DNA of 64,000 bases from Escherichia coli. GTDB lineage: Bacteria; Pseudomonadota; Gammaproteobacteria; Enterobacterales; Enterobacteriaceae. The notes beneath the pieces were generated by a model. The model saw nothing but the letters and a program-made list of their open reading frames with translations. It made no database searches and was not told the origin of the DNA. Positions 444 through 4,218 of this stretch are shown here, piece by piece (position 1 is the stretch's first letter; each line of letters opens with the position of its first letter). The translations under genes were made by a program, and so were the position numbers. Where the stretch lies: NCBI RefSeq assembly GCF_022846255.1, contig NZ_AP025682.1. One strand, written 5' to 3'.

Positions 444-467
444 AAAGACTTATCAATTTCGGAAGTG
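444..467. repeat. Left copy of a 23-bp direct repeat (AAGACTTATCA[A/G]TTTCGGAAGTG) bracketing the recombinase/regulator module
   Basis: 22/23 nt identical to 4195..4218 in the same orientation; read directly from sequence. Confidence 0.7.
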
Positions 468-496
468 TATCCGGTCAGTACGTAACGTTACAGCGC

Positions 497-1114
497 TTAC
501 AAAAACGTCCTGTTCATTATCCATGCAATATCATTCCGGTTTCTCAGACCGATTTTAAATATCGCCTTTTGTCGGTAGTAACACACATTGCTGTAATGTA
601 TCTGCATACGCTTTGCAATATCACTTACAGTTTCACCGCCAAGAAGTGCATTTATCACCTGTCGCTCATTAGCACTTAAACGCTGAAATCTATACCCACT
701 ACTTATATAGCGAGAAGGCACGGTCAGAATGCGCAGAAAAATATTTTTCAATTGATGAAAGCTTTGTGACGGAGAAATCCAGGTAAAAGGATATTTGATA
801 TTATTCTGCCCTCCCTGATGGCCAAATAAAATGCATGGAGTCCCTCTCAGTTCGTGGCGTTCAGAATAAAGGACTGACAGATTCCACAAAAACCACAAGG
901 CCTTCACAATCACTGATGACTCATGGCAGGTGAGATCTACCACAATGACACTCTGTTTCCCGGGGAGGTGTCTATCAGACAGAATATGCGACACAATCTG
1001 CTCCGGTGTTTCCACGGAATTAACCTGAACAGCATGTTGCCCGGCACTTTCCATCACTGCAAAAAGCCCGAGGCGGGTGTACTGACACTGACTCATCAAA
1101 AATATCTGTTTCAT
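497..1114 (-). CDS. LuxR/FixJ-family HTH transcriptional regulator (C-terminal LuxR-type helix-turn-helix; N-terminal domain of unclear type)
   Basis: ORF 205 aa; C-terminus LSANERQVINALLGGETVSDIAKRMQIHYSNVCYYRQKAIFKIGL fits the LuxR-type HTH pattern; ATG at 1114 overlaps the stop of the upstream gene (ATGA), suggesting translational coupling. Confidence 0.6.
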   Translation of the reverse strand: MKQIFLMSQCQYTRLGLFAVMESAGQHAVQVNSVETPEQIVSHILSDRHLPGKQSVIVVDLTCHESSVIVKALWFLWNLSVLYSERHELRGTPCILFGHQGGQNNIKYPFTWISPSQSFHQLKNIFLRILTVPSRYISSGYRFQRLSANERQVINALLGGETVSDIAKRMQIHYSNVCYYRQKAIFKIGLRNRNDIAWIMNRTFL

Positions 1115-1575
1115 CCGTATTTTGTCAGCTCCTGAGGAGCCTGTTCATTCCGTTTTCTCGATACCATCCACTGACGTAGTTTCTGAAATTTTGTCTGTGG
1201 CCTGAGTGACTGCTTTGCTGCGGGGGCAACAGGTTCCAACTGAACATCCAGTTCTGCTCCTGAACTGGCCGGGATTTCCTGCGGATCCTGTATATCCAGG
1301 ATCCGAAGAGCGCGTCTTCGTCCCGTTGTCGGTTCGTTCTGTATGAAGCGCCTGCTGCGGATATGGTTTCGTCCCTCGTGCTCAATGTAATACAGAATAT
1401 CTTTTGCTGTTCTCTGGGTTATATGAAACTCCCGGCTGACCGCCTCAACTGTCAGTAACCTGCCGGTTCGCATCCCCCAGAAGGTCACGATGATATACAG
1501 TGGTCGAGCCTGCATGTCCTGAACACACTCAGGACAGAAAAAATGTCTCTTTATTCGTCTGCGTCTCTCAGGCAT
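1111..1575 (-). CDS. CaiF/GrlA-family-like transcriptional regulator
   Basis: ORF with ATG at 1575 preceded by AGGTGG RBS (track ORF starts 3 codons earlier at an alternative start); segment RPLYIIVTFWGMRTGRLLTVEAVSREFHITQRTAKDILYYI resembles the CaiF N-terminal HTH region (KPLYLLIAEWMM...AREISIHFDIEHSKAVNTLTYIL) from memory. Confidence 0.5.
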   Translation of the reverse strand: MPERRRRIKRHFFCPECVQDMQARPLYIIVTFWGMRTGRLLTVEAVSREFHITQRTAKDILYYIEHEGRNHIRSRRFIQNEPTTGRRRALRILDIQDPQEIPASSGAELDVQLEPVAPAAKQSLRPQTKFQKLRQWMVSRKRNEQAPQELTKYG

Positions 1576-1941
1576 ACCCGCCACCTGAATATCTCTCCGT
1601 CAGAAGTATGAATTAAGAAGCATTGACATCCCTCCCCCCAGTAATTACAACAAACATCTGTTGCCGCATGTGTCGGGTTATCAGTGCTGAGTAACGCGCA
1701 ATACAGGTGCACAAGAAGAGGATCTGTTGTTGTCAAAATGACCCATTTTGACAACAACAGATTAAAAAACTAGATTTTTGCTATTGTCTGGTTTTATTTT
1801 CTTAGCTGTGTGGCGTTTTTGGCTGTTCATACTATTAATGGAGTTTTGGAGAATTCAGAAAACTGACAGACATCAATGCCATATTGTTACAGAAGGGATT
1901 TGATACGGGAGTTTTATTGATTTAAATCAAACAATTTTTAA
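1576..1941. promoter_or_regulatory. Intergenic control region between the recombinase gene and the regulator operon; candidate invertible promoter segment with perfect 19-bp palindrome (1722..1762) and embedded TTGACA-17-TAGATT promoter-like element
   Basis: ATCTGTTGTTGTCAAAATG / ACC / CATTTTGACAACAACAGAT perfect inverted repeat; TTGACA at 1748..1753, 17-nt spacer, TAGATT at 1771..1776 on the plus strand; GCATTGA (1620..1626) and TCAATGC (1872..1878) form a 7-bp inverted repeat around it. Confidence 0.4.
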
Positions 1942-2604
1942 TTAATTGTTGTTTGCATAACCTGTGTTTTTTAACATTTGTAACCTCAATACAGGCAGTT
2001 TACAGTTTGGGTCAAAAAGTTGCTTTTTCGCCCTTTTTGACGGCTTCCATAACCGTTCAAAGCGGGCCGAATTTGAAGCTGTATAAATCACCGTATGCCG
2101 GATATTCCGGTGTCCCAGGTAATCCTGAATCAGGCGTGTATCGATGCCGTTATCTGCCAACGCGTAACCACACCCATGTCTCAGCATATGTGGATGGACA
2201 GCAACAGCCAGCCCGGCATTTCTTCCTGCTTCAGCCAGCAAGTTATAAAAACGTTGACGGGTAAGCGGACGCCCTGATCTGGAAATAAATAGCCAGTCCC
2301 TCTCTTCTTCTGCTGCAGGCAATTTTATAGTTTCCCGGGCTTTGAGCCAGTTCCTGATACATTGTACTTCTTCAGTCAGTAAGGGATGCACGGTACTGAA
2401 GCCGTTTTTCAGGCGCCGAACGCACAGCTTTCGGGACTCGAGCTCAAGGTCAGCAAGACGTAACGAAAGCATTTCGCTGACCCTGAGTCCGTGGATAAAA
2501 GCAAGAAGAATCATGCAGGCATCACGTTCCGGGTGGTGCCCCTTCAGCACCGCCCGTAACAAAAGGCTGACTTCATGGTGAGTAAGAAATTTTCGGGAAG
2601 ACAT
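1942..2604 (-). CDS. FimB/FimE-family site-specific tyrosine recombinase (paralog 1, with C-terminal extension)
   Basis: 220 aa; conserved recombinase blocks IHGLRVSE, RRLKNGFSTVHPL, HPHMLRHGCGYALA, DTRLIQDYLGHRNIRHTVIYTA (catalytic R/H-x-x-R/Y arrangement); ATG at 2604 with GGAGCG RBS. Confidence 0.85.
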   Translation of the reverse strand: MSSRKFLTHHEVSLLLRAVLKGHHPERDACMILLAFIHGLRVSEMLSLRLADLELESRKLCVRRLKNGFSTVHPLLTEEVQCIRNWLKARETIKLPAAEEERDWLFISRSGRPLTRQRFYNLLAEAGRNAGLAVAVHPHMLRHGCGYALADNGIDTRLIQDYLGHRNIRHTVIYTASNSARFERLWKPSKRAKKQLFDPNCKLPVLRLQMLKNTGYANNN

Positions 2605-2733
2605 TAATCGCTCCGGTCAGATGAAACAGAGCGCTCAAGAGTGACACGATGCCCCCATCAGGCTATGGCTAAACGTGCTAAAGTCAGGAAAGCAGAATAA
2701 AACTCCGATTGCTCTTAAGAACAGTCAACTGGC

Positions 2734-3597
2734 ATGGACCCACAGGTATATCAAATGAATTTAATCCAGCAACTGGCGGGAATTATCGAAGGGAATCTGA
2801 ACAGTCCACTGTCAGTAAAAGTTCTTGCTGAACGTTCAGGCTATTCAGAACGCTGGTTGTACAAACTGTTTCAGGATGTAACCGGGATCAGTGTAGCGCA
2901 GTACATACGTCGCAGAAAACTAACACTTGCCGCTTTACTTTTGCGCCATACCAGTCGCCGGATAACAGACATATCACTAATGTATGAGTTCAGTTCGCCC
3001 CAGGCTTTTTCCCGTGCTTTCAGGCAACAGTTCAAGGTGTCACCAGTGCAGTATCGCAATGCGGATGCCTGGGATATGCAGTATGCCCAGCCCGTATTGT
3101 ACAGAACCACACCGTGCACAAAATTCAGAATGATTGAGATAGCTGAGGGCAATCATCCTTCTGTTCCAAACCTTAAAATGCCTGTGAATCTGGGAATAGA
3201 CTTTATCCATACCCAGAGCGGCGATCATTTTATTTATAACCGTAACCTTTTTGAGTCCATAATATCAATTTATGGTCCTGTTAATGAAATGTCTGACTTT
3301 ATGATTTCAGGCGAAATGATACCCTCCAGAGAAACGGATTCTGAACTAATTTATATTTTTAAAGAAATAAACAGTTTTTCCCTGCCAGAGACGCTTCTTC
3401 CTGATGGTTTATATGCCAGCCGGGAATTTACTGGGACATACAAAGAGATTTTTGATTTTCATATATATGATGCCATGGGTGCGCTGTGTATTAATAAATG
3501 TGTTATGAAAAGAGGACCTATATATACACTATTTCACAGAACAGATAATAAAAATATTATGGATATGCAATTCCTCATTCCTTGCGTAAAAATTTAA
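2734..3597 (+). CDS. AraC/XylS-family transcriptional regulator with Rob-like architecture (N-terminal dual HTH, C-terminal putative ligand-binding domain)
   Basis: 287 aa; N-terminal region (SVKVLAERSGYSERWLYKLFQDVTGISVAQYIRRRKLTLAALLL...SPQAFSRAFRQQFKVSPVQYR) matches the AraC HTH pattern; ~170-aa C-terminal domain; 3' end overlaps the convergent recombinase gene by 4 nt. Confidence 0.75.
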   Translation: MDPQVYQMNLIQQLAGIIEGNLNSPLSVKVLAERSGYSERWLYKLFQDVTGISVAQYIRRRKLTLAALLLRHTSRRITDISLMYEFSSPQAFSRAFRQQFKVSPVQYRNADAWDMQYAQPVLYRTTPCTKFRMIEIAEGNHPSVPNLKMPVNLGIDFIHTQSGDHFIYNRNLFESIISIYGPVNEMSDFMISGEMIPSRETDSELIYIFKEINSFSLPETLLPDGLYASREFTGTYKEIFDFHIYDAMGALCINKCVMKRGPIYTLFHRTDNKNIMDMQFLIPCVKI

Positions 3598-4145
3598 CTT
3601 CGCCAGACCCGATTAAAACGACCAGGATTACTGGCTGTATACAGTACAGTATGATGAATGTTCCTGTGTCCCAGATAATCCTGAATCAGACGAGTATCCA
3701 GTCCCTGATTAGCAAGAGCATAACCACAGGCGTGACGCAACATGTGTGGATGCACCTTAATTCTCAGACCCGCACGTTGACTATATCGTGCGCAGAGTTT
3801 ATAAATCCATTGTCTGGAAATTTTTTTCCCATGGCTTGACAGAAAAAGATAATCATCCTGACTACCTTTAGCGTATCTTTTTCTGATCAGGAGCCAGCGT
3901 TGCAATAGTTCTATTGTTTCTGGCTGCAATGGATGTGAAGTTGATAATCCGTTTTTCAGCCGCCTAATAAAAACAATTTTTTCAGTCATATCAAAATCTC
4001 CCAGTCTAAGGTCTATCAATTCACTGACGCGAAGTCCATGAATGTAAGTTATTTGCAGCAATGCTTTATCACGGATTTCATTGCGTGTACCCGTTATAGC
4101 ATTAAAAAAAAGCGCCCATTCGCTGTTGGTGATGTATTTACGCAT
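3594..4145 (-). CDS. FimB/FimE-family site-specific tyrosine recombinase (paralog 2)
   Basis: 183 aa; IHGLRVSE, RRLKNGLSTSHPL, HPHMLRHACGYALA, DTRLIQDYLGHRNIHHTVLYTA motifs; ATG at 4145 with AGGAGG RBS. Confidence 0.85.
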   Translation of the reverse strand: MRKYITNSEWALFFNAITGTRNEIRDKALLQITYIHGLRVSELIDLRLGDFDMTEKIVFIRRLKNGLSTSHPLQPETIELLQRWLLIRKRYAKGSQDDYLFLSSHGKKISRQWIYKLCARYSQRAGLRIKVHPHMLRHACGYALANQGLDTRLIQDYLGHRNIHHTVLYTASNPGRFNRVWRS

Positions 4146-4194
4146 ATTTCCTCCTATCAGAGTTATATGTAAATTTTACATTTTTAGATAAAAG

Positions 4195-4218
4195 GAAGAC
4201 TTATCAGTTTCGGAAGTG
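4195..4218. repeat. Right copy of the 23-bp direct repeat bracketing the recombinase/regulator module
   Basis: 22/23 nt identical to 444..467; lies 50-73 bp upstream of the recombinase-2 start codon. Confidence 0.7.

What the first reader, a model, noticed from the sequence alone, without database searches (positions are those of the whole stretch)
444..4218. 23-bp near-perfect direct repeats bracket the recombinase/regulator module
AAGACTTATCA(A/G)TTTCGGAAGTG occurs at 444..467 and 4195..4218 in the same orientation (22/23 identical), enclosing the LuxR, CaiF-like, recombinase 1, AraC and recombinase 2 genes (~3.75 kb). A chance match of this length in 64 kb is very unlikely. The copies could be att-like core sites for excision or integration by the encoded recombinases, or a shared operator; each lies upstream of a minus-strand gene (recombinase 2 and the partial ORF at 1..173).
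Basis: seen in the sequence. Interest (0 to 1): 0.6.

Follow-up and report, generated by a model that had tools for sequence, protein, structure and literature searches.

The report
Shared promoter box, not att site
The 23-bp direct repeat is real, but it looks like the same regulator-binding box in two promoters of a phase-variable E. coli adhesin (tib) island, one for an invertase gene and one for the TibC/TibA adhesin genes, rather than the ends of an excisable cassette.

Summary
The repeat is confirmed: 445-467 and 4196-4218, 22/23 identical (24/26 over 442-467 and 4193-4218), with none expected by chance. The region is the regulatory half of the ETEC tib adhesin island: tibC 5' end, tibB (LuxR-type), tibD (CaiF/GrlA-type), an IpuA-like invertase, a Rob-like AraC regulator and an IpuB-like recombinase.

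The recombinases' real target is elsewhere. It is a 276-bp invertible element (1739-2014) bounded by 7-bp inverted repeats TGACCCA/TGGGTCA. Otherwise 99.9-100% identical loci carry it in both orientations.

The repeat has a conserved 16-18-bp core, ACTTCCGRAAnTGATAAG on the gene strand. This core sits 19-21 nt upstream of a -10-like TAnnnT hexamer, both before the recombinase-2 gene and before the adhesin operon. In ten diverged loci it is the outermost conserved element of the recombinase-2 upstream region. Several loci carry only that single copy, so it needs no direct-repeat partner. I found no empty site or deletion junction.

Best reading: a shared operator overlapping the -35 region of two promoters, possibly bound by the co-occurring Rob-like regulator (inference). 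The att-site reading is not supported. The whole is an ipuS-like phase switch plus an undescribed cis element, of moderate interest.

The parts
445..467 (-). Box copy 1. Gene-strand sequence CACTTCCGAAATTGATAAGTCTT; similarity to copy 2 extends over 442-467. It lies 30 nt downstream of the tibB stop codon and 272 nt upstream of the tibC ATG.
   Evidence: Conserved with diverged flanks in the E. hormaechei plasmid (L005), Logan contig L015 and Citrobacter L028.
424..429 (-). -10-like hexamer TAAACT, 19 nt downstream of the TGATAAG of box copy 1 (predicted tibC/adhesin promoter).
   Evidence: Read from the sequence. The same box-19 nt-TAAACT/TAATCT arrangement occurs in L005, L015 and L028. No transcription-start data.
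4196..4218 (-). Box copy 2. Gene-strand sequence CACTTCCGAAACTGATAAGTCTT; similarity to copy 1 extends over 4193-4218. It lies 51 nt upstream of the recombinase-2 ATG.
   Evidence: It is the outermost conserved element in an alignment of 10 recombinase-2 upstream regions. Homology to pToe17-1 and the E. hormaechei plasmid ends at 4215-4217.
4173..4178 (-). -10-like hexamer TAAAAT, 21 nt downstream of the TGATAAG of box copy 2 (predicted recombinase-2 promoter). It would give a 5' UTR of about 20 nt containing the AGGAGG ribosome-binding site.
   Evidence: Majority fraction in these columns is 0.83 across 10 loci, against 0.41 in the columns distal to the box.
3594..4145 (-). Recombinase 2, 183 aa, IpuB-like FimB/FimE-family tyrosine recombinase.
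   Evidence: 66% identical to IpuB. NCBIfam tyrosine-type DNA invertase 210.7 bits, cutoff 221. 49% identical to recombinase 1.
2734..3597 (+). AraC-family regulator with a Rob/SoxS/MarA-like N-terminal DNA-binding domain plus a 170-aa C-terminal part. Convergent with recombinase 2, overlapping it by 4 nt.
   Evidence: A 51%-identical homologue (full length, presumed orthologue) is present in the Hafnia plasmid. An AraC-family gene is adjacent in nearly all loci.
1942..2604 (-). Recombinase 1, IpuA-like tyrosine DNA invertase. It is 220 aa in this orientation of the switch; the last 24 codons lie inside the invertible element.
   Evidence: NCBIfam invertase 254.8 bits, above the cutoff of 221. 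The predicted 200-aa form after inversion exists in public data.
1739..2014 (.). 276-bp invertible element (tib switch), bounded by 7-bp inverted repeats TGACCCA (1739-1745) and TGGGTCA (2008-2014).
   Evidence: Inverted in ETEC H10407. Inverted at 100% identity, within flanks 99.9-100% identical, in three independent assemblies L022-L024. The inverted repeats and the 275-276-bp length are conserved in L003 and L005.
1748..1776 (+). Sigma-70-like promoter TTGACA-17-TAGATT inside the element. Here it points away from tibD (presumed OFF). After inversion it would lie at 1977-2005 on the minus strand, pointing at tibD.
   Evidence: Consensus scan 10/12; in silico inversion. Prediction only.
1111..1584 (-). 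tibD, CaiF/GrlA-family regulator.
497..1114 (-). tibB, LuxR C-terminal-type regulator.
1..173 (-). 5' end of tibC (autotransporter O-heptosyltransferase); tibA lies beyond the window edge.
   Evidence: Collinear with the annotated tibC-tibA of H10407 and strain 06-00048.
4367..5607 (+). IS3-family element bordering the island on the recombinase-2 side, with 45-nt terminal inverted repeats; orfA 4437-4754, orfB 4781-5590.

Best explanation
The two 23-bp copies are two instances of one cis-regulatory box. Its conserved core on the gene strand is ACTTCCGRAAnTGATAAG. The box overlaps the -35 region (centre about -40) of two weak, activator-type promoters in the tib adhesin island. One promoter drives the IpuB-like recombinase-2 gene. 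The other drives the adhesin structural genes tibC-tibA.

One DNA-binding protein is therefore expected to control both the enzyme that flips the nearby 276-bp phase switch and the adhesin operon, so that switching and adhesin output answer to the same signal. The most likely binder is the Rob-like AraC-family regulator encoded between the two recombinase genes. It would bind as a monomer whose two helix-turn-helix units contact the two conserved half-boxes TTCCG and TGATAAG, about one helical turn apart.

Shown here: the repeat exists, its core is conserved, it keeps a fixed position relative to a -10-like hexamer, single-copy loci exist, and the true inversion sites lie elsewhere. Inferred: that these are promoters, the activator mechanism, and the identity of the binding protein.
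For: 1. Footprint upstream of recombinase 2. In ten loci whose recombinase-2 homologues are 70-98% identical to the window protein, upstream conservation starts exactly at the box. Majority fractions are: box 0.90; the 60 columns distal to it 0.41; spacer 0.52; a TAAAAT-like hexamer 19-21 nt downstream 0.83. A Shine-Dalgarno sequence and the ATG follow.

2. Same layout upstream of the adhesin genes. The arrangement box-19 nt-TAAACT/TAATCT is conserved in the E. hormaechei plasmid, Citrobacter sp. Cu233 and Logan contig L015, while the surrounding intergenic DNA has diverged. In L015 the downstream gene is an autotransporter, not tibC. The box therefore tracks the adhesin promoter rather than a particular gene.

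3. Both copies always have the same orientation relative to the downstream gene.

4. No consensus -35 is present at either site, as expected for activator-dependent promoters.

5. Loci without a tibD-type gene carry one box only, upstream of recombinase 2. These are L018/L019, L020, Hafnia L006/L010, L011-13 and L016/17. The element therefore works without a direct-repeat partner.

6. A pattern scan of one genome for each of 100,044 species gave 7 stretches of DNA with a match, about 5 expected by chance. The 3 enterobacterial stretches (4 matches) lie either upstream of recombinase 2 or between the tibB and tibC homologues (E. whittamii, Citrobacter).

7. A Rob/SoxS/MarA-like regulator is encoded in or next to every locus sampled except ETEC-type remnants that lack the recombinase-2 end; the Hafnia protein is 51% identical over its full length.
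Against: - There are no transcription-start or binding data. The -10 elements are only predicted, and the consensus promoter scan reports nothing at either site.
- The box does not match the canonical marbox better than random sequence does.
- H10407-type loci keep box copy 1 but have lost the AraC gene. Either another protein can use the box, or tibCA is there transcribed by read-through from the switch.
- Copy 1 occurs only in loci that also encode the CaiF/GrlA-type TibD, which could point to TibD as the binder.
- In E. coli L011-13 the nearest AraC-type protein is only 38% identical in its DNA-binding domain and lies 7 kb away.
- Copy 1 lies 260-310 nt from the start codon, a long leader.
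Confidence: 0.7

Rival explanations
1. Same kind of element (a shared operator), but bound by a protein other than the Rob-like regulator. One candidate is the CaiF/GrlA-type TibD or the LuxR-type TibB. These are produced when the switch is ON, which would give feedback from switch state onto recombinase-2 expression. The other candidate is a host-encoded factor. This rival is nested within the best explanation and differs only in the identity of the binding protein.
For: Copy 1 is present only in loci that encode a CaiF/GrlA-type protein: the window, L003, L005, L014/15, L021 and Citrobacter. H10407-type loci keep tibD, tibB and box copy 1 but have no AraC gene. The box fails the marbox consensus test.
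Against: The recombinase-2 box is equally conserved in loci without any CaiF/GrlA gene (L018/19, L020, Hafnia, L016/17) and in loci without a LuxR gene (L014/15). A locus-encoded binder common to all of them can only be the AraC-type regulator or a recombinase.
Confidence: 0.25
2. The two copies are att-like crossover sites in direct orientation, and recombinase 2 (or 1) excises or integrates the 3.75-kb regulator/recombinase cassette as a circle.
For: The repeats are direct and flank a segment that encodes two tyrosine recombinases. Homology between diverged loci ends at the outer edge of copy 2. In the degenerate plasmid locus pPKF8, homology breaks inside copy 1. There is weak similarity between the box (GAAAnTGA) and the arm plus core of the proximal inversion site (CAAAATGA).
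Against: - The recombinases are FimB/FimE/IpuA/IpuB-type invertases. Their crossover sites are identified as TGACCCA/TGGGTCA at the ends of a 276-bp element that is found in both orientations.
- In CFT073, genome-wide structural-variant detection after IpuA or IpuB overexpression found only inversions at the known switches (bioRxiv 10.1101/494401).
- At least five locus types carry a single box with no partner.
- No genome among 5,426 E. coli genomes shows tibC joined to the right flank through one copy. No deletion junction was found in the metagenome collection. The one single-copy contig there is cut by its own end.
- The second copy is internal to the island, not at its end, and the island is bordered by IS3-family genes.
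Confidence: 0.04
3. The boxes are accessory binding sites for the recombinases themselves. They would serve autoregulation of rec2 and repression of tibCA, or architectural sites that help synapsis of the switch.
For: The box always accompanies a recombinase-2 homologue. There is partial resemblance to the arm of the proximal inversion site.
Against: The boxes lie about 1.3 kb and 2.2 kb from the switch. FimB/FimE-type recombinases lack an arm-binding domain and are not known to act as transcription factors (established knowledge of the family). The fixed spacing to a -10-like hexamer is a promoter property.
Confidence: 0.05
4. The second copy is a neutral remnant of a duplication or gene conversion between two upstream regions, with no shared regulation.
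For: In this lineage the identity (23-26 bp) is longer than the 16-18-bp core conserved elsewhere, which suggests recent homogenisation.
Against: Both copies persist as conservation islands in loci whose flanks have diverged to near-random similarity. Similarity does not extend significantly beyond 26 bp: 255 of 5000 shuffles reach the observed downstream score.
Confidence: 0.05

Closest known systems
ipuS phase switch of uropathogenic E. coli CFT073 (ipuB, ipuA, ipuS, ipuR, upaE; Battaglioli et al., mBio 2018, PMC6083910)
   Same: Gene order is recombinase 2 (66% identical to IpuB), recombinase 1, invertible element, LuxR-type regulator, autotransporter adhesin. The element is about 260-276 bp and bounded by 7-bp inverted repeats. 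The distal repeat lies inside the recombinase-1 ORF, so inversion shortens that protein: 220 to 200 aa here, and an 11-aa truncation for IpuA.
   Different: The tib version adds a CaiF/GrlA-type gene (tibD) and the TibC glycosyltransferase. It also carries the shared box at two promoters. The paper does not mention direct repeats or an AraC-type gene (0 occurrences of either term). In the one ipu-type locus fetched (L008), the recombinase-2 upstream region has no box, and only a weak 18.7-bit match lies elsewhere in the locus.
tibDBCA locus of ETEC H10407 (Lindenthal and Elsinghorst 1999, as summarised in PMC7545054 and PMC8973357)
   Same: Window 1-2425 is 98% identical to the H10407 tib region and includes box copy 1.
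   Different: In H10407 the locus is cut by IS600 inside recombinase 1. The AraC gene, recombinase 2 and box copy 2 are therefore missing, and the switch sits in the opposite orientation. The two reviews I read describe the functions of TibB and TibD as undetermined and do not mention a switch.
fimS / FimB / FimE type 1 fimbrial switch
   Same: Two paralogous FimB/FimE-family tyrosine recombinases sit next to a short promoter-bearing invertible element.
   Different: The inverted repeats differ (7 bp TGACCCA against 9 bp TTGGGGCCA, the latter from established knowledge). The cargo is an autotransporter adhesin. There are extra regulators and the shared box.
MarA/SoxS/Rob class II promoters (marbox overlapping the -35 region)
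   Same: A Rob-like monomeric AraC-family regulator is encoded in the locus. The box is asymmetric, about 18-20 bp, has two conserved halves one helical turn apart, and is centred near -40 of promoters that lack a -35 consensus.
   Different: The sequence does not fit the marbox consensus AYnGCACnnWnnRYYAAAYn: best matches are 9-10 of 13 positions, which is the level of random sequence. Binding is untested.
att sites / direct repeats flanking integrative elements
   Same: Direct repeats of more than 20 bp flank a segment that encodes tyrosine recombinases.
   Different: The recombinases are invertases with a different proven target. One repeat is internal to the island. Single-copy loci exist, and no empty site was found.

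Membership tests
Fim/Ipu-type tyrosine-invertase phase switch (applies to the locus) | FimB/FimE-family tyrosine recombinase gene(s) adjacent to the element | tested here: met
   Recombinase 1 scores 254.8 bits against NCBIfam 'tyrosine-type DNA invertase' (cutoff 221). Recombinase 2 scores 210.7 bits and is 66% identical to IpuB.
Fim/Ipu-type tyrosine-invertase phase switch (applies to the locus) | Short element bounded by inverted repeats and found in both orientations in otherwise identical DNA | tested here: met
   The 276 bp at 1739-2014 are bounded by TGACCCA/TGGGTCA. 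They are inverted at 100% identity in L022-L024, inside flanks that are 99.9-100% identical, and are also inverted in H10407.
Fim/Ipu-type tyrosine-invertase phase switch (applies to the locus) | Promoter inside the element that drives the neighbouring genes in one orientation only | tested here: inconclusive
   A 10/12 sigma-70 consensus match at 1748-1776 points away from tibD here and towards it after inversion. There are no transcript data.
Fim/Ipu-type tyrosine-invertase phase switch (applies to the 23-bp repeat) | The repeat is the recombination site of the switch | tested here: not met
   The repeat is direct, lies 1.3 kb and 2.2 kb from the element, and shares no core with TGACCCA.
att-type direct repeats of an excisable or integrative element | Direct repeats flank a segment that encodes its own recombinase | tested here: met
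att-type direct repeats of an excisable or integrative element | Related genomes show an empty site with one copy, or a circular junction | tested here: not met
   None among the 24 E. coli genomes with tib DNA (out of 5,426 searched), nor in plasmids. The deletion-junction pattern is absent from the metagenome collection. Power is low, because few intact loci are available.
att-type direct repeats of an excisable or integrative element | The repeats occur as a pair at the element's ends wherever the element occurs | tested here: not met
   Five locus types have a single box upstream of recombinase 2 only. In tib loci the second copy is internal to the island.
MarA/SoxS/Rob-type activator site (marbox-like, class II) | A cognate monomeric AraC-family regulator with two helix-turn-helix units is present | tested here: met
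   Residues 7-122 match Rob, SoxS, RamA and MarA (NCBIfam 120.8 bits to the RobA N-terminal part; PDB 7VWY/1D5Y, E=1e-23).
MarA/SoxS/Rob-type activator site (marbox-like, class II) | Asymmetric box of about 20 bp overlapping the -35 region | tested here: inconclusive
   The box centre is about 27-29 nt upstream of a conserved -10-like hexamer at both sites. The transcription start is not mapped.
MarA/SoxS/Rob-type activator site (marbox-like, class II) | Sequence fits the marbox consensus | tested here: not met
   Best matches are 9-10 of 13 specified positions, equal to random 65-mers (mean maximum 9.4).
MarA/SoxS/Rob-type activator site (marbox-like, class II) | The regulator binds the box and activates transcription | not testable with these tools
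   Needs EMSA or footprinting and reporter assays.
Dispersed repetitive element (REP/ERIC/MITE-like) | Many copies in unrelated genomic contexts | tested here: not met
   The repeat occurs only in tib-type loci in E. coli genomes, in plasmids and in species-representative genomes.

The most novel reading that the evidence does not exclude
The box pair wires a signal-gated phase switch. A ligand-responsive Rob-like regulator would simultaneously turn on the OFF-to-ON-biased IpuB-like invertase and an internal adhesin promoter. Environmental input would then set both the probability of flipping the tib switch and the TibC/TibA output. On this reading, the prototype ETEC strain H10407 is a degenerate form locked in the presumed ON orientation, having lost this control through an IS600 truncation.
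Probability: 0.35. Interest if true: 0.55.

Novelty: new member of a known kind. Interest (0 to 1): 0.35.

Why it matters
TibA is a classical ETEC adhesin/invasin, and the two reviews I read say its regulation and the roles of TibB and TibD are still undetermined (PMC7545054, PMC8973357). The comparative evidence here makes four points:

- The intact tib island is a phase-variable, ipuS-like system with a live 276-bp switch.
- The textbook H10407 locus is a truncated version that has lost both recombinases and sits in the opposite, presumed ON, orientation.
- A conserved 16-18-bp box links the promoter of one invertase gene with the adhesin promoter. This gives a concrete handle for finding the regulator that couples switching to expression.
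- For scanning practice, a long direct repeat flanking recombinase genes can be a duplicated operator rather than an att site. Natural inversion variants reveal the true recombination sites.

Tried and rejected
- Extended homology between the two copies beyond 26 bp is not significant: 255 of 5000 shuffles reach the observed downstream score.
- The match to the MarA/SoxS/Rob marbox consensus is at random level.
- The consensus sigma-70 scan reports no promoter at either box. I read this as a missing -35 element, but it gives no positive support.
- Search for an excision product or empty site found nothing. The checks were megablast of 1-4300 and a 35-nt probe against 5,426 E. coli genomes and PLSDB, plus an exact deletion-junction pattern in the metagenome collection. 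A control scan for the 23-mer in the same collection found only two contigs, one of them cut by its end, so that negative result is weak.
- The box is absent upstream of the recombinase-2 gene in the one ipu-type locus fetched (L008); only an 18.7-bit match lies elsewhere in that locus.
- The Salmonella Poona plasmid homologue (62.6% identical, L007) has no recognisable box.
- Literature searches for a tib promoter, tib phase variation or TibB/TibD function found nothing specific. The original 1999 tib paper is not held in the library.
- By eye, I saw no convincing fit to the IHF, FNR, CpxR, RcsAB, PhoP or sigma-28 consensus sequences. That comparison rests on my memory of those consensus sequences and was not scored.

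Full report
OBSERVATION. The 23-mer AAGACTTATCA(A/G)TTTCGGAAGTG occurs twice on the + strand, at 445-467 and 4196-4218. The two copies differ at one base. The similarity extends to 24/26 over 442-467 and 4193-4218. None of 100 dinucleotide-preserving shuffles produced any match at up to 3 mismatches. A weight-matrix scan of all 64 kb finds no third site.

WHAT THE REGION IS. Window 1-4300 is 97.6% identical to seven complete E. coli chromosomes. Positions 1-2425 are 98% identical to ETEC strains including H10407. The annotated records identify the tib adhesin island. Its parts here are:
- tibC (autotransporter O-heptosyltransferase): only its first 173 nt are in the window, on the minus strand, and tibA lies further left.
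- tibB: LuxR-type regulator, 497-1114.
- tibD: CaiF/GrlA-type regulator, 1111-1584.
- Recombinase 1: 1942-2604.
- An AraC-type gene: 2734-3597, + strand.
- Recombinase 2: 3594-4145.
- An IS3-family element from 4367, followed by the chromosomal genes yhiM and yhiJ/yhiL.

Recombinase 1 passes the NCBIfam 'tyrosine-type DNA invertase' threshold (254.8 bits, cutoff 221). Recombinase 2 scores just below it (210.7 bits) and is 66% identical to IpuB. The two recombinases are 49% identical to each other. The AraC-type protein has an N-terminal Rob/SoxS/MarA-like DNA-binding domain. Its closest solved structure is Rob.

WHERE THE RECOMBINASES REALLY ACT. In H10407, window 1739-2014 is present in reverse orientation. 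The segment is bounded by the 7-bp inverted repeats TGACCCA (1739-1745) and TGGGTCA (2008-2014). The repeats and the 275-276-bp length are conserved in the diverged loci on pToe17-1 and on an Enterobacter hormaechei plasmid.

The distal repeat lies inside the recombinase-1 ORF, so inversion changes that protein from 220 to 200 aa. The exact predicted 200-aa form of the common allele is present in public data. Three independent assemblies that encode it carry the same locus at 99.9-100% identity, with exactly these 276 bp inverted at 100% identity. This is a live phase switch.

The switch is built like ipuS of E. coli CFT073. That system has a 260-bp element with 7-bp inverted repeats, the distal repeat inside ipuA, and an 11-aa truncation of IpuA in the ON state (PMC6083910). 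A consensus promoter, TTGACA-17-TAGATT at 1748-1776, points away from tibD in the window and would point at tibD after inversion. The window is therefore probably in the OFF phase. That assignment is an inference. It also rests on two further points: by analogy with ipuS, the full-length recombinase is made in the OFF state, and the prototype TibA strain H10407 carries the other orientation.

The 23-mer has nothing in common with these crossover sites.

WHAT THE REPEAT IS. It is not a dispersed repeat. In 5,426 E. coli genomes and in PLSDB it occurs only in tib-type loci.

Comparison with diverged loci gives a clear footprint. I aligned ten recombinase-2 upstream regions whose proteins are 70-98% identical to the window's. 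They come from E. coli, Salmonella, Enterobacter and Hafnia. Nothing is conserved distal to the box (majority fraction 0.41). The box ACTTCCGRAAnTGATAAG is conserved at 0.90. A hexamer resembling TAAAAT follows 19-21 nt later (0.83), and then come a short leader with a Shine-Dalgarno sequence and the ATG. This explains why homology between the window and two diverged loci stops at 4215-4217: the box is the outermost functional element of that upstream region.

Upstream of the adhesin genes the same layout recurs: box, 19 nt, then TAAACT or TAATCT. It is conserved in the E. hormaechei plasmid, Citrobacter sp. Cu233 and a Logan contig, while the rest of the intergenic DNA has diverged. In the Logan contig there is no LuxR gene, and the downstream gene is an autotransporter rather than tibC.

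Both copies always face their downstream gene. With a -10 hexamer at those positions, the box centre lies near -40, and neither site has a -35 consensus. This is the geometry of an operator overlapping the -35 region of an activator-dependent promoter.

WHY NOT ATT SITES.
- The enzymes are invertases with a different, demonstrated target (above).
- In CFT073, genome-wide structural-variant detection under IpuA or IpuB overexpression found only inversions at the known switches (10.1101/494401).
- Five locus types carry a single box upstream of recombinase 2 and no partner in the up to about 10 kb of flanking DNA fetched: L018/19, L020, Hafnia L006/10, L011-13 and L016/17.
- In tib loci the second copy is internal to the island, and the island is bordered by IS3-family genes on both sides.
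- No genome joins tibC to the right flank through a single copy. The single-copy E. coli loci I examined are either truncated inside recombinase 1 by IS600 (H10407-type) or assembly contigs cut by their ends. An exact deletion-junction pattern is absent from the metagenome collection, but that collection holds only two contigs with the repeat, so this last negative is weak.
- In a scan of species-representative genomes with box plus -10 as the pattern, about 5 chance matches were expected and 7 stretches matched. The enterobacterial matches lie in only two contexts, upstream of recombinase 2 or between the tibB and tibC homologues.

WHO BINDS IT (inference). A locus-encoded protein common to the box-bearing loci must be the AraC-type regulator or a recombinase. 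CaiF/GrlA genes are missing from L018-L020, Hafnia and L016/17, and a LuxR gene is missing from L014/15. The Hafnia plasmid encodes a 51%-identical protein (full length, presumed orthologue) of the AraC-type protein. The box is asymmetric, with two conserved halves (TTCCG and TGATAAG) about 10 bp apart. That suits a monomer with two helix-turn-helix units, as in MarA, SoxS and Rob.

Several points count against this assignment. The box does not fit the marbox consensus. H10407-type loci keep copy 1 without the AraC gene. Copy 1 co-occurs with tibD. I therefore hold the shared-operator reading at about 0.7. Given that reading, I put the Rob-like regulator at roughly even odds as the binder.

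MODEL. One regulator controls both the IpuB-like invertase promoter and an internal adhesin promoter. In CFT073, IpuB is among the recombinases most efficient at OFF-to-ON inversion of ipuS. By analogy, the same signal would raise both the chance of switching tib ON and the output of tibC-tibA. Every step after 'conserved box at two promoter-like sites' is inference.

NOVELTY AND SCORE. The switch is a new member of the Fim/Ipu family. I found no paper describing tib as phase variable or describing this box. A shared operator is an ordinary kind of element. Interest is moderate, 0.35: useful to ETEC and adhesin specialists, but not surprising in kind.

Noticed in passing
window 1739-2014: A 276-bp invertible element bounded by TGACCCA/TGGGTCA lies between tibD and recombinase 1 and overlaps the last 24 codons of recombinase 1. 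Otherwise identical loci carry it in both orientations, so the tib adhesin locus appears to be phase variable. I found no paper that says so.
   Followed up: yes
window 1722-1762: A perfect 19-bp-stem palindrome surrounds the proximal inverted repeat. It looks like a classic core-type site, TTGTCAAAA-TGACCCA-TTTTGACAA. As RNA on the minus strand it folds at -25.5 kcal/mol (z = -5.7) and is followed by a partly U-rich tail. It exists only in this orientation of the switch, so it could act as an orientation-dependent terminator blocking read-through from recombinase 1 into tibD.
   Followed up: partly
L001 (ETEC H10407) 8736-9465, and 13 other ETEC genomes: In H10407 recombinase 1 is cut by IS600. 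The AraC gene, recombinase 2 and box copy 2 are gone, and the switch is in the orientation opposite to the window. This looks like a locked, presumably ON, remnant of the full system. Orientation was checked by alignment only for H10407. For the other ETEC genomes it is inferred from the two-piece megablast pattern.
   Followed up: partly
window 3594-3597: The AraC-type gene and the recombinase-2 gene are convergent and overlap by 4 nt at their stop codons. The convergent overlap (4-50 nt) recurs in L005, L007, L014, L016, L018 and L020, so transcriptional interference or antisense coupling between regulator and recombinase is possible.
   Followed up: no
window 4367-5607: An IS3-family element with 45-nt imperfect terminal inverted repeats lies right next to the island, and its homologue in strain 06-00048 (L002) is annotated as frameshifted with an internal stop. 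IS3-family genes also flank the far side of the island in strain 06-00048 and on a Salmonella IncHI1 plasmid that carries the same island at 97.6% identity. This suggests the whole island moves by IS elements.
   Followed up: partly
L009 (plasmid pPKF8-91kb) 8247-8266: A degenerate tib-like locus without recombinases keeps only the distal half of box copy 1 (AATTTCGGAAGTG). Homology to the window breaks in the middle of the box, and the intergenic region is shortened from 322 to 126 bp.
   Followed up: no
L008 9846-9865 (E. coli ipu-type locus near emrKY-evgAS): A weak box-like match (18.7 bits, AGTTACGAAAAGGATAAATA) lies about 300 nt downstream of the IpuB-like gene, on the opposite strand. 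It may be chance: about 0.1 such match is expected in that locus.
   Followed up: no
window 7397-9070 and 9332-10954: Two paralogous large ORFs (557 and 540 aa) carry metallophosphatase-like motifs (GDTDG, GDxxGDR, GNHE). In the matching E. coli record they correspond to genes annotated as YhiJ/YhiL family or DUF4049. They flank the island's chromosomal insertion point together with yhiM.
   Followed up: no
L005 10256-10639; L014 12538-12924: Some tib-like loci carry an extra YgiW/BOF-family gene between the switch and the CaiF/GrlA gene. Others lack tibB (L014/15), lack both tibD and tibC (L020), or lack tibD alone (L018/19). The recombinase 2 - AraC - recombinase 1 - switch module is thus combined with varied downstream cargo, including fimbrial operons in Hafnia and E. 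coli (L006/L010, L011).
   Followed up: partly
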